64,000 nucleotides of DNA from Amoebidium appalachense (lineage: Eukaryota; Protista; Ichthyosporea). How positions within the stretch are numbered: the stretch's first letter is position 1; each line of letters starts with the position of its first letter. Both the position numbers and the translations under genes were made by a program. The notes under the pieces were generated by a model, which saw only the letters and a program-made list of their open reading frames with translations, ran no database searches and had not been told where the DNA came from. Of this stretch, positions 5,562 to 63,965 are shown piece after piece. The stretch covers positions 8,925,962 to 8,989,961 of the forward strand of contig CAVNZM010000007.1 in NCBI GenBank assembly GCA_963693365.1. The letters are read 5' to 3'.

Positions 5562-5579
5562 TCCACCCTGCGCATAGTG

Positions 5580-8500
5580 TGCAATCACTCTTGTCTGTAA
5601 ATGGCAGCCCGGCTGCAAGGTGCTGTTAACAAATCTGACTGAAAAGCATGTGTATTTGAAGCCTGGTACCCAGGTGGCAGCACTAGAGCCATTGGTTGAG
5701 GGTGATATGCTCACTGTTTTGGTCGATGTGTCCGGGTCCCCAGCTGCAGAGAAGACTGGTGTGGAGGCCGTTGGGTCAGACTCACCGTCAGGCTCTGTTG
5801 GTGGACAAGTGTTTGCTGCTGCTGCGCCGGCGGCTGCAGACAAACCTCCGACGGGTGGAGCCACAGTGGGGGGATCAGGGACCACTGGGGCTACTGGGGA
5901 CAACATTATTATTGGTGAGGGTGGCCGCGTACACGCTAGTGTGCCTGCACGTGTGTACAGGCAGGGGCGCGCGCGCACGGAGACTGTGCAGCCGTGGCTG
6001 TCAAAGAAGAAGGCCAGAGGCCGACTTGCTTTTGCAGCTAGGGCCAGGCACCCAGGGTCGCAGGCGCCTGGTGCTCCAGCCCCTACCAGCACTAGTAATG
6101 TTGCAGGTCCCGGGCAGGGGCAGGTTTCCTCTCCTCAAAACGAACATGTGCATTCCGATCGGAATCTCGAGTTCTCATTGGCTGAGGGTACCTTCGGGCC
6201 GGCCGCTTCATCCTCTGAGGGAGGAGTTGGGCCGTGGCATATAAGGGAGGACACTCAGGCCTGGGGCAGTGTGAGGGAGTATGTGCCGGGGATACTGAAG
6301 CATCTGGCCCAGGGGAAGAGACTGATGTGCAGTGTGCAGGGGCCCGCCATGCACGAGGTCAGTCTGGTGGTAGTCAGCCGGGCGCACCAGGAGCCAATCA
6401 GATTGCAGCAGGGGTGAGCCACGTGCCCACAGCCTCTGCATCTGATGCCGACTCAGGGGGCACCGAGGATGAATTACCACCGGGCGTGGAGGACCCAGAG
6501 ACTATCCCCCTTCCTGATCTGACACCTGCGGAGAGCAAGAGATTCGCTAAGCGCATTCGGAGGTTGCTTAGCAGATGGAAGCACGTGTTTTCTGCACACG
6601 AGCATGACTATGGCAAGTCCAATGTGGCAACGCTGAAGATAGAGTTAACCACAAATGAACCACAGTATCGGCCTCCATACAAAATTCCACACCATATCCG
6701 GGATCAAGTGTGGAAGCAACTTCAAGTATGGTTGGCTGGGGGGGTCATTGAGCCGTCCACCTCTCCCTACTCTGCACCCATGGTCTTAGTGCGTAAAAAG
6801 GATGGGAGCGTAAGAGTGTGCCTGGATTTTCGGAAAATAAATTCATGCACTGTGAGGGATGGCTACCCCCTACCCCGCATAGACACTTCTCTCGATGTGT
6901 TGCGTGGGGCGCGCTGGTTCAATGTGTTTGACCTCTATGGCGGCTATCACCAAATTGAGGTGGATCCAGAAACACGGCCTAAGTTAGCTTTTACTACGCC
7001 GTGGGGTCACTATCAGTTTTGTCGCGCACCCTTTGGGGTTACGAATATGCCGTCTGTATTCAGCCGCGCCATGAATACCGTATTCGCGGGCATGCTGTGG
7101 GTTCATTTGCTTGTGTATATCGATGACCTTCTTCTGTTCACCCCGGATTTGGAAAGTCACTTAACCCTCTTAGAAGAAGTTTTCAGGCGGCTGTCCGCGG
7201 CTGGTCTAAAGCTAAAGGGGTCCAAGTGCCACTTTTTCCGGACAGAGGTGGCGTATTTAGGCCATCGTGTGGGCAGAGATGGTATTAAGGTTGATGACGG
7301 GAAAATCGCTGTGATACGCGATAAGCAGGCACCCACTTCTGTGTCCGAATTAAGGAGTGATTTGGGTCTGTTTTCGTATTACAGAAGGTTTGTTCCGAAT
7401 ATGAGTGACCTGGCCGAGCCGCTAACGCGCATGTTGGGTGATAGCCCACAGGATAAGCAGTTGCGCAAAAAGATTCACGGGAATGAGCCCCCCACATCTA
7501 GTGCGCGACGGAAGCGGAATGGCACGGCCAAGGAGAAGGCTAGGCAAGCCCGTACTGCTGCAGCAGATGAAAGCACAGAGGTTATTGGGCAAGCCGAATC
7601 AGAGGTTGTGGTGAGCGCACCGGGCGAGAATATTCATGCGAATATTCCAGCGAATAATTCGCGCACACGTGCGAATACGCGCAAACATGTCTATTTTGTG
7701 TGGGGTGAGGAGCAGCAACGTGCATTTGATGCCCTAAAGCATGCTCTCACACATGCCCCCGTGTTGGCTCATCCAAACTTCGACAAGCCTTTCATTGTGG
7801 ACTCCGATGCTAGCAATGTGGCGCTTGGTGCGGTGCTGTCGCAGGTGGGAGATGACGGGCAGGAGCACCCCGTTGCTTATGCCTCCCGCACGCTCAGTAA
7901 GAGCGAGCGCAATTATTCCGCCACCAAGAGAGAGGGTTTGGGCATCTATTGGGCTGTGTGCAAAGCCTTTCATCAGTATACCTACGGGAAGCCATTTATT
8001 TTGCGCACAGACCATTCTTCGCTGACTTCCATATATGGTAACGGGGATGCCCCCGAGCCCATTGTTGCTGGCTGGCAGATGGCCCTGTCTGCATACACCT
8101 ATGACATCCACCATCGTGCTAAGAAGGACCACAGCAATGCAGACGGCATTTCACGGCCTTCCAGCGCGAATTTGGTGCCCAGCGAAGATGATCCGGATCT
8201 GACTTTTCCTTCGCTGATTGGGTGTGTGCACGGAGATGACCACAGTGATTTTGTGCCAGACACCGTTGTGTTTCCTGCGCTCGTGGTGACGCGTGGGCGG
8301 GCACGTGCGGACGGTGGTGCTGATGCACCCACCCACAAACCCGCGTCAGCGGCGCGCACACAGAAGCGCAAGCGCACGTCAGGGGTTAAGGGTGGACCGG
8401 GGGAGGGTGCGCATGCCACTGCAGACCCCACCCCCACCCCCCCTCTGGCTGAGCATATCTCTGATGCTGCACGTGATCATACCCATGGGTTGAAGGTGAA

Positions 8501-10156
8501 TACTTCCCGCGAGTTACGCGCGCTTACTATCCCACAGTTGCCGGGTATGCCTACTGTGGAGGAAATTAAGGCGGCGCAAAATGCAGATCCGTTTTTGTGC
8601 AGTATTCGTGATTACCTCAGCAACCCCACCGCGCCGGCACAGGTGGATGGAAGTGTTGCTTTAGAGGCAAGCAGATGCACGGTTTATAAGGGGGTGGTGT
8701 ATGTGTGGACACCGGAGCAGCGTGCGACTCGTCGCCCTTCGCTGCTGCCACAGGTCTGGGTCCCCGAGTCTTTAAGGGCACAGATTCTTGCGGCTTGCCA
8801 CGATGCCCCCACAGCCGGGCATCTTGATGCCCAGCGCACGTTTCATCGCATTTGGTCTTCGTTTTGGTGGCCGGGGATGTGGCATCAGGTCGTGCGGTAT
8901 GTGAATTCGTGCGATAGGTGCCAGCGGCGCAAAACGCCACGCTTGCAGGGCCGCTTGCCCGTGCAGCGCGGTTTCGCACCGCAGTACCCCTTTCAGTATG
9001 TGGCCATGGATGTGACCGTCTTGCCACCAGCGAAGAGCGGGAAGCAGTATATCCTTGTGTTCATAGACATGTTCACACGGTGGGCTGAGTTGGTGATGTT
9101 CGATCATCCACCCACCGCAGAGGATATCGCTAATGCTTTCCACGACTATGTTTTCGCGCGACACGGACCACCCGAGTTTGTGCTGTCGGATAATGGGTCG
9201 AATATTTCTGCGCAGCTGGTTAAGGATGTGTTAACCCTCCTAACTAGTCGCCAGATCCTCGCGTCACCCTACTCCCCCCAGACAAATGGGCTGGTTGAAC
9301 GGTTCAATCGCACCCTTAAGAGTATTCTTGCGCAAGTGGCTGCACTGATAAGTTAACGGAGTGGGACACGTTTTTGCCCCAGGTGCTGTTTGCCTACCAC
9401 ACGGCTATGCACTCCGCACTGGGCGACAGTTCTTTCTTCCTTTCGTATGGCCGGGACCCCCGTGACCCCTTTGTGGAGAAACTGGGCCCCGAGTACAGCG
9501 GCGCCACTAAGGAGCATCGGTATGCACTCTGGGAGCGATTGACCTATGCGCGCGATGTGGTTCGTGCACGTATGGTTACCGAGCAAGATCGGCACCGCAA
9601 ATCAGCCAATCAGAAGGCGCGGCCTGTTCCCGATTTGGCAGATTTGGTGCTCAAGCTCGACAACACCCTTAACAACAAGAAGGTGGTTGATGGTGATGGT
9701 AACCAGCTGTATGAGGCTGCTAGCCTACGGGACAAGTGGGTGGGGCCCTACCGGGTTTTGCGCAAAGTCGCGCCACTTACCTACGATATTCAGCAGGTGG
9801 GGACACAGGATGTGGAGCGTTCGCACGCTCGTTTCCTTAAACCCTATGTACCCCGCACGGATGGACCTCCTACCCCACTACCTGAGTCCCGTGTGGCAGG
9901 TGACGCTGTGACCGCGGAAGTGGCCAAGATTATTGACCATAAATGGGAAAATGGTCGCGCCCTCTACAAAGTTCGCTGGAAGGGGTTTAAGGCCACCGAT
10001 GATTCGTGGGAGTCACATGCAAACTTGTCTGAGTCGGCCTCGGGTGCCTTAGCTGATTATTTGCAGCAAGTGATTCGGCCCCCCAGTGAGGAGCCAATCA
10101 AAAATCAGCGCAAGGACACCCAACAGCATGTGCGCAAACGCAGACGTAAAGGTTGA
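5580..10156 (+). pseudogene. pol: Gypsy pol (post-protease linker, RT, RNase H, integrase, chromodomain) with at least two frameshifts
   Basis: ORF 5620: VLLTNLTEKHVYLKPGTQVAALEP linker. ORF 6234-9356: SPYSAPMVLVRKKDGSVRVCLDFRKIN, YIDDLL, DSDASNVALGAVL, HHCC (CHDAPTAGH...CDRCQ), AMDV, LSDNG, NGLVERFNRTL. After a frameshift at ~9350, ORF 9374-10156: VLFAYHT, KWVGPYRV and chromodomain VAKIIDHKWENGRALYKVRWKGFKATDDSWE. Confidence 0.93.
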
Positions 10157-11322: not shown

Positions 11323-11810
11323 GGGGCTAACTCCCCCCTGGGTTGGGAATGGGCGGCTTGAGAAAAAATTCCACCGCATCTCAAATATCCTGTATACACG
11401 ATATTGAGGAGGGGGGAAATGTGCATCCCCCTGGTTGAGGGGGTTCGATGTCCGATATGGAGGTCCTTCATTTTCCATCTCTGACGTCATAATCCCCTTT
11501 CATTTTCCATGCACACATATAAAGACATAGCATGATATTTATTACATAATATCCGTAATAAATGCATACGATAGCATGATATTTTACTTTTTAAAATATA
11601 TGATTTCACCTTAAAGTTTTAAAACCCACTTCGGACTGGGTTTCCATGCTTTTCCATGCGAACATCTGGAGTGCTGGCCCGAAAAGCGACCCGTCGACCC
11701 TTGCCTGCGAACATACATGATCATCAGTTTGCCCAATCGCTCGCCCATTTTCATTTGCAGGAAGGAGGCCTTGCTCTAGTCTACCAAGAAGTCCGAGTCG
11801 TCAGAGAAAA

Positions 11811-12224
11811 ATGACAATCCACTGGGCGCAACGGTTTTTTCAGGCCTTCACCGACAATGCAGCAAATATTACCGCAGCGGTGGCCCTGTTTGGGACGTTC
11901 GGGGCTACGTTGCATTACGTTGAGGTAAACCGTCAGCGCACTGCAGTTCTGGAGGAAAAGATCAGCAAGACTCAAGCGGTCTTGGAGGTAGCTCTAAAGG
12001 AAAAGATCAGCAAGACTCAGGCGGTCTTCGAGGTTGAGCTGCGTAGCAAGGAAAAGGAAATGGCTGCCCAGAGGGAGTTGTTTGAGCACAAGCTGGAGAT
12101 ACAGGAGCAGAAGCACCAGAGGGAGGTGGAAGCCTCAGCCAAGGCGTTTACGTGGGATGTTCTGGTGAAGACCGGCCTGTCTGCAGACTACCCTTTCCAG
12201 CCCCATCCCAAGGCCGGGCAGTAG
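11811..12224 (+). CDS. Hypothetical single-TM plus coiled-coil protein (137 aa)
   Basis: Hydrophobic ITAAVALFGTFGATLHYV, then an E/K/Q-rich helix with an internal 45-bp duplication (EEKISKTQAVLEVAL/KEKISKTQAVFEVEL). Coding-like codon usage; possible acceptor ttgcag at 11760. Confidence 0.65.
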   Translation: MTIHWAQRFFQAFTDNAANITAAVALFGTFGATLHYVEVNRQRTAVLEEKISKTQAVLEVALKEKISKTQAVFEVELRSKEKEMAAQRELFEHKLEIQEQKHQREVEASAKAFTWDVLVKTGLSADYPFQPHPKAGQ

Positions 12225-14645: not shown

Positions 14646-17528
<2,883 letters not shown>

Positions 17529-17577
17529 CTATCAGAACAACATGAATCACATTTTTATAAGCGAGGGATACAACCGG

Positions 17578-17618
<41 letters not shown>

Positions 17619-17821
17619 CGCGTGTGTGTGCGGCTGTGGGTGTGCGTGCGTGCGCTTACTTGCATGTGTGCCTGTGTGCATTTTAGGAAGGGGAGTGGGG
17701 GGGCCGGGGGGGAGGGGGAGGGGGGGGGGGTCTGTGGAAAATCGTTGCAGAAAGAGAACATAATCCCCTAATCCCCTGATAGTCTGACAGCGTACATAGT
17801 CTGTTTACAACTGTTGTTCCT

Positions 17822-20135
17822 TCAGAGCTGGGTGGGGTTAGGGGGTGGGATGGAGGACAGAGGGTAGTAGCAGGTGCTGAGGTTCCGTCGTGCCTCCCCC
17901 GTGTGGTTGCTGTGTCGTAGGCGCTCGATGGTCGTGCTGACACTGGAGGTGATGGCCGTGAAGTGGCCCAGCTTCTGGGAGTGGGCCAAGTACATGGTGC
18001 ACAGCTTGGAGGGGGGCAGGGCCATGCTCAGGTCCCCGTACCGGCGTAGCACTTTGGCCCCGCTGTCCATGTCCACCACCACCAGCCGCAGGCGGGTGAC
18101 TGACTCAGGCTGCTCGGCAATGGCTGTATTGAGGGCATCCACGGCTGTCCCCAGCTCATCCACCGTCAGGCCGTCCTCTGCAGGCACAGGCAGGTCGTAC
18201 TTGGTCCACAGCACTCGGGTTGCCCTCACCAATCTCCGCAGGTAACGGTCTTGGTGGTGGCTCCTTGGATCTGTGGGGGGGAGTAGCAGGTTGCACACCC
18301 CACAGCCGGAAGATCTCGACACCCCCAGGGTCGTGTTGCCGGCCCCCAACACCTCCTCCGGGGTCAGCAGGTGGCACAGCACGTGGTGGTCCTTGCGATC
18401 CATGAGGTTGCCCCCCTTGCCCAGCACCTTGCGTGTGTGCTCGGTGGGCAGGCTGGCCTGCTCGTTGCCATTGGCTGCCTTCTTCACCCACATCACCATG
18501 CTGTACAACAGGCACAGCTGGGCACAGTTGGGGCCGTAGGCAAAGCCGTGCAGCTGCTGGTGGTCGAGGGCCCTCTCCCCGGTCACCTGTGGGTCGTCGG
18601 TGCTGCAGGCAGCCTGCACGAGGGCGGTCACATCCACCACGGCCTTGGCCTCCACCAGATCCTGCAGCCACCGTGCATTCACCCCCGTGGTGGTGGACAG
18701 GGACCCGCAGGCCCCCCTCCTCACCATGTCCTTGGGTCGGGCCACCGTCAGATGCACGGTGGATCTGTTGGAGTACACTGGTACTCCCGGCTAGCAATGT
18801 CTGTTAGAGAAAGTTTCTGAGCAATTGAATAATTGTTTCAACACTCACTCGAGTGCATAGAGCTTTTGTTTACGGTCATATTCATATATGGTAGTTATAT
18901 GTTTGAGCCAAAACTGTACCAATGACGAGCTTCACTAGCAACGTGCTAATTGTGCTCATTAATTAATATTCCCGGTTCAGATGATGTCATGTCTATATTT
19001 GCCACAGGATTCTATTCTTAGAGTGGTAGTGTGCTTTATTCCCGGATATTCTCAGAATATTTTTAGTTGTGTGAAGTAAGATTTACGTTTAACTGCAATT
19101 GGTGTGTTAAACACGTTTATTTGTGTGCTTTAGTGCAAGTTAACTAGCCACTCAACGTGCACAGTTAACTTTTATATCTTTAACGACTTGTTTTCATTGT
19201 GCTCTCTTTTCGGCCATGCTGTACATGGCCCACCACCAGGGTGCACACGAGGCCACCATGAGGTGGCCAACGACTATATAAAGCAGTGCCTCCCATGTCA
19301 CAAACATGGGAAGCAGAACGTTTGATTTACACTTTTCTACTGTCGTTTTCAGTGCACAAAACACATAGACTAGTTACCCATCATACACGACACTATGTCT
19401 GACAACTTACAGTTGCAGCAACTAGTCCAACTACTGGAGCAGAGGTTGGCCTCACAAGATGCAATCATTTCTGACTTACAGAAGGAACAACGTGCACTAG
19501 AACTAGTTTCTATGAACACAATGTCCAACAGGATCTGCCGTCCATGAAGGTCTCGGCTGCACTCTGGGTGCGTTGCCGTATGTTCTCCATCAGCTTGAGC
19601 ACCACGGCGTTGACATCACCATTGAACACCTCCATGGGGCCGGCAGTAAACACACGACGGTTGGTCACGTCGGCGTTGGGGTTGCCATCATCCCCCACCT
19701 GGTTGTCCACACCGTTGGCCTGCACGTGCAGGCTGATGATACGCACAATCAGCATGTCCCCCGCCTGCACATCTGCACGGGCCATGGCATCGAACAGCAT
19801 GGCTGCAAAAAACTGGGGGAACTCAGTCACGTCAAGGGTGCGCAGGGGTTGGTACTCGAGGGTGTGGCCACGCACACCCAGTCCCCGTGCCTGCATGTCA
19901 TCTACACGGGAACGCAGTCGCCAGTTGCCCTCGGCCGGCATGGCAATGATCTGGGGGTCATCGGGGTGATTGATGGGGGCGGGGGCGGGGGGCTGGCCGG
20001 GGAGGGGGTGGGGGTGGGGGGTGGTGGGGCCAACATGGCCTGCAGGAAGGGGTGGGCCTGCAGGACCTGCTGCGGGTCGGCATCCAGTGCCCGCAACAGA
20101 TCATCTTCAAACTCTTCCTGGCTCTCGCTGAACAT
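17822..20135 (-). pseudogene. N-terminal terminal-protein/OTU-like region of a protein-primed DNA polymerase B; interrupted and truncated before the exonuclease/polymerase domains
   Basis: ORFs 19510-19941 and 17822-18778 join in frame once the solo LTR and one TSD copy are removed (...LMENIRQRTQSAAETFMDGRS|TVHLTVARP...). Downstream: GPNCAQLCLLY, GLTVDEL, LRLVVVD...YG, MYLAHSQKLGHFTAITS. The upstream 20135 ORF joins through a frameshift in a C-rich run. Confidence 0.65.
18766..19530 (+). mobile_element. Solo LTR (Ty1/copia-like), 765 bp, 5-bp TSD GGATC
   Basis: TGTTGGA...TCCAACA termini; GGATC at 18761-18765 and 19531-19535; TATATAAA at ~19275; ORF from ATG 19395 open through the LTR end. 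Confidence 0.9.
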
Positions 20136-20424
20136 CTTGAATGGTAACCTTAGATCTCAGGCTGTAATCTTATAAATCTCAAGTATCAATCTAATCGATG
20201 GTTGCTAGCCTGGCTGTGCCAGAGCAATGCCTCAATAAAAAACAGCATGCAAAATAACGTCTCTGTGCCTGTGTCTATTAAATCTCAAAGCCCAGTGAAA
20301 TCTCAAAAGCAAAAATCTCTCCAAATCTCACGAAGCAGTACGCAAAAACAACAAGTCTGTGCGCGTGTCTGGCCGCCGCCGGCCGGCCGCCTCTGTTTAC
20401 CAAAAACAATGAGCCATTCGCGGT

Positions 20425-20600
20425 CCTATTGGTCAGTTTCGGGATGGAATGTACAGATTTCGGCTTACGCGTTCTGATTGGTCAGTGTTCCGGCAAATTT
20501 GCTTTTTCGCCTCTTAATTCCCATTGGGCGACTATTTCCATTGGTCAGTTTCCCATTGAATTCAGGATTCGAATTCCCATTGGTCAGTTTTCGCCGGAAT
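20425..20600 (-). promoter_or_regulatory. Array of CCAAT-box repeats (ATTGGTCAGT on + strand) upstream of the pPolB-like ORF
   Basis: ATTGGTCAGT at ~20428, 20477, 20540 and 20579, plus ATTGGG at ~20523. Confidence 0.4.
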
Positions 20601-22691
20601 TCAGAATTCTCGCATTCCTTGGATCCGCAGCACCTGTACGTGTGCGCATCACATGTACGCGCACACGTACGCGTACACGTGTTCCGCCCTCTCTATTTAA
20701 TTTTTTAATTAAAACCACGTGCGCTGCACGTGTTTTGCACACACACAGTGTGTGCACGTGCTCCTGTACATATATCCACCCATATCTCATATCCCATGTC
20801 GCGATATACACAGATATCACACACCTCATATCCACCTATGCCATATCTTTGGGGGCTGCGGGACCGTGTGGATGTGACGTCACACCTGTGACGTCACATC
20901 CACGGGGTGCCGCACCCCCATATGTAGTACTATAAAACTTTTTTACGGCCAACTTTCGAACATGGACTTCCGCTATTGGCCTGCCAGTGCGCCCCACCTC
21001 GCGAGGCGGCCGTGGCGCTGAGAGAGTTCGACGATTTTCAGGGAGTAACTGCGCTGCGCACTTTGTTTCGTACTCGGTTAAGTGCCTCCCTTAATTAGTA
21101 TGTTTGGATTGTCGTCTGCTGTTTGTCGTATGGAGGAATTGTCTCTTCGTTTTTGTTTTCGTTTAGTTCGGATACCTGATGGTCACCCTCTTTATGCTTT
21201 CTTTCCCCCCCCATCTCTCCATCCCTCTTCCCCCCGATTCACCAACGCCACTTCTGAATGTCCTCAGCCTACCGTCTTTCAACCTGATCCTTCCTCTCGC
21301 TATCTCACTCCCTCGAGCTCTTTCTTTTTTCTTCCTGTTTTTTCTGCCTTTTCGAGTTATTACCTAATTTATGACGCAGTATAAGTTTCTTTCTCGTTCT
21401 GATAGAGAAATCAAAGGTAAAACTCAGTCGGCATGTGTTATGTTCCTTTAGGCAACACCTGTAACTGATCATTTAATTCGCTTTTTGGGAGCTTTGGCAG
21501 GTCCTGATACATTTCTCCTGCTGTACGTATCATACCACCCTTAGGCTAGTAGATAAGTCTGTATGGTGCTCTGATGTTGATATTGCCTGGGAAGTTGTGC
21601 AGTAGCGTTGTAATTCTTGTTTCCATCGCCGCTGGTGCCACTTTTGTGCTGAACTTTTTAATTGAAAGCATGTTGATAGCTGTGAGTTTTTATGTCGCGT
21701 TTTACCTCTTTCCCTAGTACGGGTGTCTGCTTCACTGGCTGGCAATGTGAACACTTGAGACTTTTTGTTGAATAATTATTCTGTTGGTCGTCACATTGAG
21801 TATTTATATCATTTTCACACAGACTGTTCAGGTATCTCAGTATGCACTTGCAATTGTTACTGGATAACTCGTGAAGTTTTTATTGTCTTCAGAATCTCAG
21901 TATGCCGTGCATACTTGCATGTCTTTCCGTCGAATAAATCCATCAAAAGAAAAGGAAAAAAGTTTTCACAAGTATTTCAGTTATTTTTGCGAAATTTGGA
22001 TTTCTGAAAAAAGTTTTACGGAAAAGTCGACTGCGCTGAGCACGTAGAACACCTTATTTTTGTTTTAGCACCCCTCCTTCATTCTTTTCCAAAGAAGCGC
22101 CAATTTAGGGTCATTTAATAAAAATCTAAATTTTCAAACCAAAATTTCAAAATGTTCCTGTGGCGGCACCGGGCACTGGTCCGGGTGCATTTGAAGTGGA
22201 CACTGTCAAGACGGACACTTTGACGTGTCCATTTCTGAAATATCTCAATTATATGGGGAGGGACGACCCCTTGGATCCGGGTGGCTACCGATGCTAGCCT
22301 CTGCTTACCCATAATATGTAATAGGGGTGTCATATACAACGATGGCGCTCATTGTTGCCTAGCATGTACATATGTCACTGGCTGCATTTGATTGGCTGCG
22401 CTGGAAAACGCAGTAGGCCGTCGAATGTGGCTGGGCCTCGACCGGCAGTGCCCACGCAATAAAAGTGTGTAAACCCCATTTTGGGATCTGAAATTGGAGG
22501 GGTTTACGCTGTTTACTCGAGGCAAAGAGAACCAGTCTCAGGTATGGGGGGGGGCTTTGCTCGGAATATCCCCTCAGCGGTATATCATGATCACGTACAT
22601 AGATGTCGGGTGGTGACTATATATCAGGGTTTACTTTCTCTACGAGACACCATAAAGACTACAAGGAGAAATCAATTAGTTGGGGTTCCCC

Positions 22692-25509: not shown

Positions 25510-26866
25510 GCCACCACCACCACCACCACCACAACCACGCATCCTGACAATTGGGGGGGGGTGCCTGGTTGGCTAGGCTTTGTGCTTCCCCATTTACCCC
25601 CTTTGCACAGTAACTGTGTGGTTTCCCGGTGTCTACCGCTCCACCCATCACTAGAGGTTGCTCCCCTCCCCACGAACACACACACACTCACAGTACTAAT
25701 AAATAATAGTCTCTGCTCCCTCCCGACCTTTTTCCTGCCCATCTAGCAACTCCTTTCGAAAATGAAAGATTGCCAAACCAAGTATGTACACTCTAAACAT
25801 GGCTTTTTATGCTTAGAAAGAGAGAGGGAGGGAGGGAGGGAGGGAGAGAGATCTAGAGTGAGAGCGAGAGGGAGCGAGAGAGAGCTCTCACGGTGTGTGT
25901 GTGGGTGGGTGAGTATGTGTGTGTGTGGTTTTGGGGCGGATGTGGGGTGTGCGTCTTTTTAAGGCCTTTTGTGTATATGCGTGCGTGCGTGTGTGACTGT
26001 GTACATGTTTGGGTGTGTTCGTGTTTATGTGTCCACTGTGCCGAAGCAGGAGTCTGAAGTTGTGTTAAGCAGCTCTTTCTCTCCCTCGGCTCTTTGCTCG
26101 GCGAAGGAGTGAGAGCGGGTATATTGGGTGTTTGTATGTGTGTGTGCGTGTGTGTGTGTGTGTGCCAGTGTTCCTCCCTCGGCCTCCCCCCCCCCCCCCC
26201 CCCCCCCCCTCAGCCCCCCTTCTCCTCTTACGCCATACCCACCATCGCCACCCATACCACTGCAACCCAGCTGGTTGGCACACGCAACCACATTAGCTCC
26301 ACAGCTGAAACATAAATATATATTTATGCATGTATGTGTGCTTGTGTGTATAACATAATTATGTGTGGCGGTTTTAGTCATGTTTCTTCTCGCGGGCCAG
26401 CGAGCCTTGGAGAGCTTCGCGTGTTGGCGTCGATAGCCTTTGCCGCACTTTGATCGATCCAAACCAGCCTGTTCCATATTTTAGATTCCGATTCGAACCC
26501 TGCAGTTTCCAGGCCCGGGAGATTAGGTGGCCTAAGTGCTCCCACCACATTGAAACTTGCATGCGGCGTTTATCTTCCACTCCTCCAGTGTATTTACACC
26601 TTTCACACTTCAACGCCAGTCACGCCCCACTCACCCGTGCTGCACAAAGCTCGTGAGAACATAGAATGAGTGCTTTTCTTCAAAGGAGTAAACGGTGGTG
26701 GCTGCAAGTAGCAATACTGTAACACTTGAGCAAGTGATTCCATGTGACTTGTGCATGGAGTTGTCACTTGTTCATAAAATACCATAGCACAGAGTGGTTA
26801 GTTTTTGCAGAGGGCACTCAGTTCACATACAGCACAAAACACGAGAATCGTTCCAAGTTATCCAAA

Positions 26867-27541
26867 ATGAAGTTTGGGTTTCCACAATCAATGGGATCCC
26901 TCTCCCAAGGGTCTACGCAAGATACCTGTACCCACACCAAGGTAGCACAAGAAGAGGTAACCACTTCGAGCCTTCCCAAAGTGAAGCGCATCGTCAAGCT
27001 TGAAAAAGGACCAACACAGAGATTTGGTGCTAGTGTGTGCGGGCGAGGGAAATCCGTTTACGTCACCTGGGTAGTCACTGGAACCCCTGCTTTTCGCGCC
27101 GGGCTACAACCTGGCGACAAGATTGCGTGCGTAAACGGGTTCATGGTGGATGAGGCGTCTTGTGTGCAGAAGGCAAGAACTGTGCTGGACATGTTAACCT
27201 ACAGCGAGAAGCTCAAGGTGAAGATATGCGAGGCCCCACTCAGCAGTATCCATATAATCTCACTGGCCGGCACGACCATGCCCCGCCTTCCCATATTAAA
27301 CGGCGTAGTCCAGTTGGCAAGTGATACACCAGAAGCGGTTGCTTGGGCCAAGGCTGGGCTTAAACATAGCACGGTGGTGACGGCAATCAATGGCAAGGAT
27401 GTGATAGGATTGAGCGACTCAAAAGTCAGCCAGAAAATAGCCAGAAAGCTCAAGAAGTACAGAACGGTAGAGTTGACTTGTATTCCTGGTTGGCTGGGTG
27501 TTGAGTTGATCACGGAGAAAAAGCGCCGCTGCAATATGTAA
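26867..27541 (+). CDS. Syntenin-like tandem-PDZ protein, intronless
   Basis: PDZ1: RIVKLEKG...FGASV...VYVTWVVTGTPAFRAGLQPGDKIACVNG. Linker CEAP. PDZ2: AKAGLKHSTVVTAINGKDVIGLSDSKV...VELTCIP. This arrangement is typical of syntenin. Confidence 0.8.
   Translation: MKFGFPQSMGSLSQGSTQDTCTHTKVAQEEVTTSSLPKVKRIVKLEKGPTQRFGASVCGRGKSVYVTWVVTGTPAFRAGLQPGDKIACVNGFMVDEASCVQKARTVLDMLTYSEKLKVKICEAPLSSIHIISLAGTTMPRLPILNGVVQLASDTPEAVAWAKAGLKHSTVVTAINGKDVIGLSDSKVSQKIARKLKKYRTVELTCIPGWLGVELITEKKRRCNM

Positions 27542-46860: not shown

Positions 46861-56755
<9,895 letters not shown>

Positions 56756-59389: not shown

Positions 59390-63965
<4,576 letters not shown>

What the first reader, a model, noticed from the sequence alone, without database searches (positions are those of the whole stretch)
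17822..20931. Endogenous Polinton/adintovirus end encoding a divergent terminal-protein/OTU module of pPolB
Seen: an AGTACTA terminus with hairpins, then a reconstructable ~500-aa ORF. Known: Polinton/adintovirus pPolBs have an N-terminal TP region (..IE..QS..F..) and an OTU-like Cys-His protease domain ahead of the exonuclease. Here the candidates are ENIRQRTQSAAETF, NCAQLCL (Cys) and GHFTAITS (His). An extra HHVLCH...CGVC...HH segment between them may bind metal. Inference: the relic of a divergent integrating DNA virus that is invisible as two unrelated ORFs in the track.
Basis: partly seen in the sequence, partly recalled or inferred. Interest (0 to 1): 0.8.

Follow-up and report, generated by a model that had tools for sequence, protein, structure and literature searches.

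The report
Broken end of a Polinton virus
This stretch is likely the broken, cut-off end of a Polinton-type DNA virus lodged in a eukaryote's genome, keeping only the front third of its polymerase gene (a predicted DNA-priming domain and a predicted protease), split by a retrotransposon remnant; it is an ordinary kind of relic from an unusually divergent lineage.

Summary
The observation largely holds. On the minus strand three coding pieces (about 510 codons) run inward from a hairpin-bearing end near 20928. They are split by a frame change at a G-run and by a 765-bp solo LTR with a 5-bp target duplication. Direct searches found no relative. A profile from 43 Polinton-type polymerases did: read through with X at the LTR, the pieces score 15.7 bits (0 of 1000 shuffles, 0 of 2529 unrelated ORFs reach that), terminal-protein part first, OTU part second. 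The catalytic Cys and His align with residues invariant in all 43, and an alignment-guided model has the OTU fold. Corrections: the likely catalytic Cys is the second one in NCAQLCL; the 'AGTACTA' end is insecure, as its outer bases also fit the neighbouring repeat. Public runs hold LTR-free copies. Paired terminal repeats, target duplication, integrase and capsid genes could not be tested (no genome held). Metal binding by the insertion is untested, and long insertions there are common in another polymerase group. Verdict: new, divergent member of a known kind; modest interest.

The parts
20852..20931 (-). Element end: 68-nt terminal hairpin (20852-20919) holding two TGACGTCA palindromes; true last base somewhere in 20927-20931
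   Evidence: boundary
20140..20851 (-). Subterminal non-coding DNA with further hairpins and five CCAAT boxes (ATTGG on + at 20428, 20477, 20523, 20540, 20579); likely promoter and part of a terminal repeat (inferred)
   Evidence: window background 0.18 ATTGG per 200 bp
19971..20135 (-). Piece A: start codon and acidic N-terminus, ending in a G-run (Pro-rich on the minus strand) where the frame changes
   Evidence: G-run not covered by contigs
19531..19970 (-). Piece B: most of a predicted terminal-protein domain; candidate linking Ser at 19563-19561
   Evidence: opposite Ser/Thr/Tyr in 37 of 43 references; Asp of AGDML opposite Asp in 38 of 43
18766..19530 (.). 765-bp solo LTR, with GGATC duplicated at 18761-18765 and 19531-19535
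   Evidence: LTR-free joint 18760>19531 in 3 of 3 DNA runs laid, and the LTR in other contexts
17867..18763 (-). Piece C: last strand of the terminal-protein domain, linker, predicted vOTU protease (Cys 18514-18512, His 17965-17963), first Cys of a likely zinc knuckle
18254..18478 (-). Insertion inside the vOTU with HHVLCH, CGVC and HH; same codon bias as the rest of the gene; metal binding untested
   Evidence: model confidence 42-72 by block
17822..17866 (-). Break: the last 14 codons and the stop likely are not part of the original gene; a repeat end abuts at 17822
   Evidence: loose ends before 17867 and behind 17822 in run X5

Best explanation
This is likely the dead, cut-off end of an integrated Polinton (Maverick)-type DNA virus, keeping one terminus, its likely promoter and the first third of the protein-primed polymerase gene, which is split by a solo LTR. 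In the intact element (inferred from the family, PMC11161782) the N-terminal domain would be the terminal protein: its Ser would take the first nucleotide and prime copying from the element's end; the OTU-like Cys-His protease next to it would cut the terminal protein off the polymerase; zinc knuckles, exonuclease and palm would follow. Shown here: coding pieces, their order, the LTR insertion, the hairpin, the conserved Cys, His and Ser positions, LTR-free copies in public runs. Inferred: that the missing part was a polymerase, that the end is one of a pair of terminal repeats, and all enzyme activities. This copy cannot make a polymerase.
For: Profile of the TP+vOTU region of 43 pPolBs from Polinton-type loci (two example loci carry rve integrase or A32 ATPase genes): read-through with X scores 15.7 bits, P 5.5e-7, 0 of 1000 shuffles (max 2.8); pieces C and B rank 1 and 2 of 565 window ORFs; the TP-only profile ranks B first and the OTU-only profile ranks C first. 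0 of 2529 non-polymerase ORFs reach 15.7 bits (max 8.3). Cys and His invariant in 44 of 44 rows. The reference alignment, without the window's protein, hits yeast OTU1 at E 3.4e-6. Model with mean pLDDT 69.8; the top 26 VIA rows are OTU-type deubiquitinases, best 3by4 Z 8.2, rmsd 3.6, 125 aligned. Gene reads inward from an end 0.8 kb away. One contig in run X5 goes on differently at 17867 and, read by eye in frame, has a second Cys completing a CxxC as in 43 of 43 references.
Against: The signal is weak: leave-one-out scores of ten references are 54-263 bits, single pieces score only 6-9 bits with E 0.07-1 within the window, and hhalign probabilities are 35% or less. It was the third reference set tried and the profile was narrowed afterwards; profiles from 29 and from 112 other pPolBs did not beat shuffles. 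The OTU model was guided by OTU-bearing rows; the unguided model was poor (pLDDT 39) and gave no significant match. Foldseek E-values stay above 0.01 even for the guided model. The Asp three residues before the Cys (37 of 43 references) is Ala, and His+2 is Thr where references have Asp, His or Ala. No polymerase core, integrase, capsid gene or second terminal repeat lies in the window.
Confidence: 0.85

Rival explanations
1. The same TP-vOTU module, but from a cousin of Polintons: a Polinton-like virus or transpoviron with a Tlr1-type palm-helicase fusion, a mavirus-like virophage, or a linear plasmid.
For: PMC11161782 (passages) reports TP and vOTU in all of these. The diagnostic downstream domains are missing from the window. 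Other pPolB groups score up to 12.7-26.2 bits on the same profile, the range of the window's protein.
Against: Only the Polinton-type profile detects the pieces (against 82). A CxxC appears to follow the His as in the Polinton-type references.
Confidence: 0.08
2. A short non-autonomous element or a host-kept gene that always ended after the vOTU, making a stand-alone terminal-protein/protease.
For: Piece C is open for 313 codons to a stop at 17822; the junction at 17867 is spanned by a contig in run X5 (record 25).
Against: The LTR sits inside the terminal-protein domain; another copy goes on differently at 17867, in the middle of a CxxC; the 16 listed differences from other copies in piece C fall 4/7/5 on codon positions 1/2/3, as in neutral decay (only 40 of 154 rows were shown).
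Confidence: 0.04
3. An unrelated transposon or host gene whose motifs resemble TP and OTU by chance.
For: No hit in Pfam, NCBIfam, PHROGs, PDB sequences, the ESM Atlas or 1.84 billion protein representatives.
Against: Two separate pieces match two adjacent domains in the right order, above all shuffles and all 2529 control ORFs.
Confidence: 0.03

Closest known systems
Polinton/Maverick pPolB, TP-vOTU-EXO-PALM (PMC11161782; passages and section 6 read)
   Same: Order TP then vOTU; Ser between the second helix and last strand of TP; Cys in the first helix and His in the fourth strand of vOTU; CxxC after the His.
   Different: 11-20% identity to the 43 references over the vOTU; Cys-His spacing 183 against 92-149; Ala for the Asp before the Cys; everything after the vOTU is lost here.
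Adintoviruses (PMC8502044, passages), including those endogenised in the protist Amoebidium (PMC11244446, passages and supplement legends)
   Same: OTU-bearing PolB; integration into host DNA; truncated, decaying copies beside complete ones are described.
   Different: Alpha/Beta class rests on the polymerase core, absent here; integrase and capsid genes not seen; the host of this window was not established.
Long-insertion pPolBs (P0041-P0159, unnamed metagenomic group)
   Same: Large insertion between the vOTU Cys and His (spacing 148-232, median 174, n = 112); HxxAIT-like His motif.
   Different: No significant sequence match; only 5 of 112 have a CxxC in the insertion.
Cellular and viral OTU deubiquitinases (yeast OTU1 3by4, OTUD2 4boz, nairovirus vOTU)
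   Same: Predicted fold and Cys-His pair.
   Different: 10-18% identity among the top ten rows; likely role is self-processing of a polymerase, not shown to act on ubiquitin.

Membership tests
Polinton/Maverick | pPolB with N-terminal terminal-protein domain and hydroxyl linking residue | tested here: met
   TP profile ranks piece B first of 565 ORFs (5.1 bits, weak alone); Ser opposite Ser/Thr/Tyr in 37 of 43. The TP fold itself was not modelled.
Polinton/Maverick | vOTU domain with catalytic Cys and His after the TP | tested here: met
Polinton/Maverick | Exonuclease and palm domains after the vOTU | tested here: inconclusive
   This copy breaks at about 17867; no longer copy could be read.
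Polinton/Maverick | rve integrase, packaging ATPase, protease, major and minor capsid genes | not testable with these tools
   No genome held; none seen among the window's ORFs.
Polinton/Maverick | Pair of terminal inverted repeats of 100-1500 bp | not testable with these tools
   No second copy in the window; no genome held.
Polinton/Maverick | 5-8 bp (usually 6 bp) target-site duplication | not testable with these tools
   The other end is lost.
Polinton/Maverick | 5'-AGT-type terminus (recalled; one reference contig, L219, begins AGTAGT) | tested here: inconclusive
   AGTACT if the end is 20931, ACTACA if 20928; favour 20928-20929.
Adintovirus (Alpha or Beta) | OTU-bearing PolB of the PF03175 or divergent class, with integrase and virion genes | tested here: inconclusive
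   OTU met; class and gene set need the missing part.
OTU protease (active) | Asp three residues before the catalytic Cys, as in most references | tested here: not met
   Ala here; Asp in 37 of 43, other residues in 6 of 43.
Solo LTR | TG..CA ends, 4-6 bp target duplication, no internal genes, empty site elsewhere | tested here: met
   criteria from PMC8969392 passages

The most novel reading that the evidence does not exclude
A Polinton lineage with no detectable relative among 1.84 billion protein representatives, still present as many copies in its host, whose self-processing vOTU carries a zinc-binding insertion and a changed oxyanion pocket, and whose ends carry a long hairpin with two CRE-like sites instead of the usual simple repeat.
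Probability: 0.25. Interest if true: 0.5.

Novelty: new member of a known kind. Interest (0 to 1): 0.3.

Why it matters
It shows that a Polinton lineage can be invisible to Pfam, HMMER over 1.84 billion proteins and a protein language model, yet recognisable by the TP-vOTU order. Intact copies would add a far outgroup for the proposal that the vOTU cuts the terminal protein off the polymerase, which PMC11161782 puts forward as a hypothesis. The relic itself is ordinary: decayed copies of such viruses are described in protist genomes.

Tried and rejected
Direct searches of piece C or B: Pfam, NCBIfam, PHROGs, PDB sequences, longer proteins in the 5.8-billion set (10; 0 of 6178 candidates), 1.84 billion representatives (21; piece C only), ESM Atlas (13, 37), phage records (38), viral and metagenome contigs (12, 26, 27): nothing. 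L001 is a chance hit in a bacterial phage. A 17-nt terminus pattern gave three chance matches in viral contigs. Unguided AlphaFold model: pLDDT 39; Foldseek and VIA gave no significant match, though several OTU-bearing proteins sat among the weak rows. Profiles from 29 and 112 other pPolBs did not beat shuffles. Pairwise BLAST against one Polinton-type pPolB: nothing. A wider 59-sequence profile that included the polymerase core scored lower (1.4 bits, still 0 of 500 shuffles). Rfam: none in 17400-22200. No RNA holder listed. Read depth was not used as copy number. The insert is not a copy of DNA elsewhere in the window, so not shown to belong to the gypsy element at 5.5-10.2 kb. Paper searches for an AGTAGT terminus (one unrelated paper) and for a zinc-finger insertion in a Polinton OTU (0 papers) gave nothing. 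Earlier findings of this scan: none. Supplements of PMC8502044 were listed, not read; they may hold closer relatives.

Full report
What is in the sequence. The window is from an intron-rich eukaryote full of simple repeats; no genome is held and I did not establish the host. On the minus strand there are three coding pieces: A from the ATG at 20135 into a G-run at 19971-20031, B (19510-20100) in another frame, and C (17822-18790). Together they hold about 510 codons. All three show strong codon-position bias (GC3 0.74-0.85, GC2 0.26-0.47), the insert and upstream DNA do not, and piece C has the strongest bias of 229 window ORFs. Between B and C lies a 765-bp insert, 18766-19530, with TG..CA ends, a 7-bp terminal inverted match and a GGATC duplication: a solo LTR by the criteria in PMC8969392 (passages).

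Other copies. Twenty public runs under three organism labels hold part of the stretch. In 3 of 3 DNA runs laid, contigs join 18760 to 19531, so LTR-free copies exist, and single sites differ in up to 14 contigs of one run, so the element is a family. The LTR also occurs in other contexts. One contig in run X5 leaves the window's sequence at 17867; read by eye in frame it has a second Cys that completes a CxxC. This marks 17867 as the likely break. No contig covers the G-run, so the frame change may be real or an assembly slip.

The end. A 68-nt hairpin (arms 20852-20884 and 20887-20919, 88% complementary) lies about 10 bases inside the end; 20630-20931 folds far better than its shuffles (z -9.2, 0 of 100). 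It holds two TGACGTCA palindromes, and five CCAAT boxes lie 290-450 bp before the ATG (the labels CRE and CCAAT are recalled). Copies of the right-hand repeat elsewhere match from 20928 on, and two related ends leave the window at 20928-20929. No second copy of the end lies in the window.

What the protein is. Every direct search failed (the one hit is a chance match). An unguided model was poor and matched nothing significantly. I therefore collected reference polymerases by walking from phage PRD1. Profiles from the first two groups (29 and 112 proteins) did not score the pieces above shuffles. The third group did: 43 pPolBs with a whole N-terminus, taken from 86 Polinton-type loci; the other 43 loci had no single ORF with enough N-terminus. 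Example loci carry rve integrase and A32 ATPase genes. With the profile narrowed to TP+vOTU, B and C read through with X at the LTR score 15.7 bits (P 5.5e-7; 0 of 1000 shuffles, max 2.8), with B on the TP part and C on the vOTU part. C and B rank 1 and 2 of 565 window ORFs. None of 2529 non-polymerase ORFs reaches 15.7 bits (max 8.3). The signal is real but weak: ten references score 54-263 bits when left out, hhalign probabilities are 35% or less, and this was the third set tried.

Residues. In the alignment the second Cys of NCAQLCL and the His of GHFTAITS fall in columns invariant in all 44 rows. The reference rows alone hit yeast OTU1 at E 3.4e-6. The Ser of TQS faces Ser, Thr or Tyr in 37 of 43 references, and the Asp of AGDML faces Asp in 38 of 43; PMC11161782 (section 6) places the linking residue there, between the second helix and the last strand. 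That last strand lies at the start of piece C, so the LTR splits the TP domain. Against activity: the Asp three residues before the Cys (37 of 43) is Ala here. A model folded with the 43 rows has mean pLDDT 69.8, above 80 in the strands; the top 26 VIA rows are OTU-type deubiquitinases (best 3by4, Z 8.2, rmsd 3.6, 125 aligned), and Foldseek lists OTUs at E 0.04 and weaker. This model was guided by OTU rows and is not independent evidence.

The insertion. Cys-His spacing is 183, against 92-149 in the 43 references. The extra segment has the gene's own codon bias and holds HHVLCH, CGVC and HH. Metal binding is possible but untested. Long insertions here are not unusual: spacing is 148-232 in 112 pPolBs of the second group, 5 of which have a CxxC there.

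How it likely worked. By the family's proposed mechanism (PMC11161782, passages), the TP Ser primes copying from the element's end, the vOTU cuts the TP off, and an rve integrase puts the element into the host. Here only one end and the first third of the polymerase gene remain; an LTR element then landed in the TP and was reduced to a solo LTR (order of events inferred). Rivals are a cousin with the same module (Tlr1-type PLV, mavirus-like virophage, linear plasmid; 0.08), a short stand-alone element (0.04) and chance (0.03).

Comparison and verdict. It works like the N-terminus of a Polinton pPolB. Membership of Polintons or adintoviruses is likely but rests on two of the defining features; paired terminal repeats of 100-1500 bp and 5-8 bp duplications (bioRxiv 2023.08.22.554363, passages), integrase and capsid genes could not be tested. 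OTU-bearing PolB is described for adintoviruses (PMC8502044, passages), and truncated, decaying copies in a protist are described (PMC11244446, passages). PMC12721341 (passages) only restates the TP-vOTU background. So this is a new, very divergent member of a known kind. Interest 0.3.

Noticed in passing
window 5578-10156 (+): Ty3/gypsy-type retrotransposon pol (RT, RNase H, integrase) followed in another frame by a chromodomain-bearing ORF.
   Followed up: partly
window 20471-20860: In all five DNA runs from studies P1 and P2 that were laid (X1, X2, X3, X5, X8) contigs read to 20860 and go back to 20471, so some copies seem to repeat about 390 bp of the subterminal DNA; another variant replaces 20552-20609.
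   Followed up: no
window 20884-20929: A contig of run X13 holds only the outer arm of the terminal hairpin, from the loop outward, joined to other DNA; the hairpin loop also differs in a contig of X5. The hairpin may be a break-prone site.
   Followed up: no
window 20928-21400: A different, very abundant repeat starts right at the element's end and has another left context elsewhere; the element seems to have landed in it.
   Followed up: partly
window 17738-17822: End of another repeat: nine contigs of run X5 match up to 17822 and then differ from each other.
   Followed up: no
window 26738-27541 (+): Uninterrupted 267-codon ORF with PDZ matches; syntenin-like by recall.
   Followed up: no
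window 11721-12224 (+): 167-codon ORF with a hydrophobic stretch and a charged, coiled-coil-like tail, with codon bias but no significant Pfam match.
   Followed up: no
window 46861-52376 (+) and 59393-61095 (-): Exons of intron-rich host genes: dihydrouridine synthase-like and pectinacetylesterase-like.
   Followed up: no
P0041-P0159: A large unnamed group of long pPolBs (mostly 1400-1980 aa) whose vOTU carries an insertion that raises the Cys-His spacing to a median of 174 residues.
   Followed up: partly
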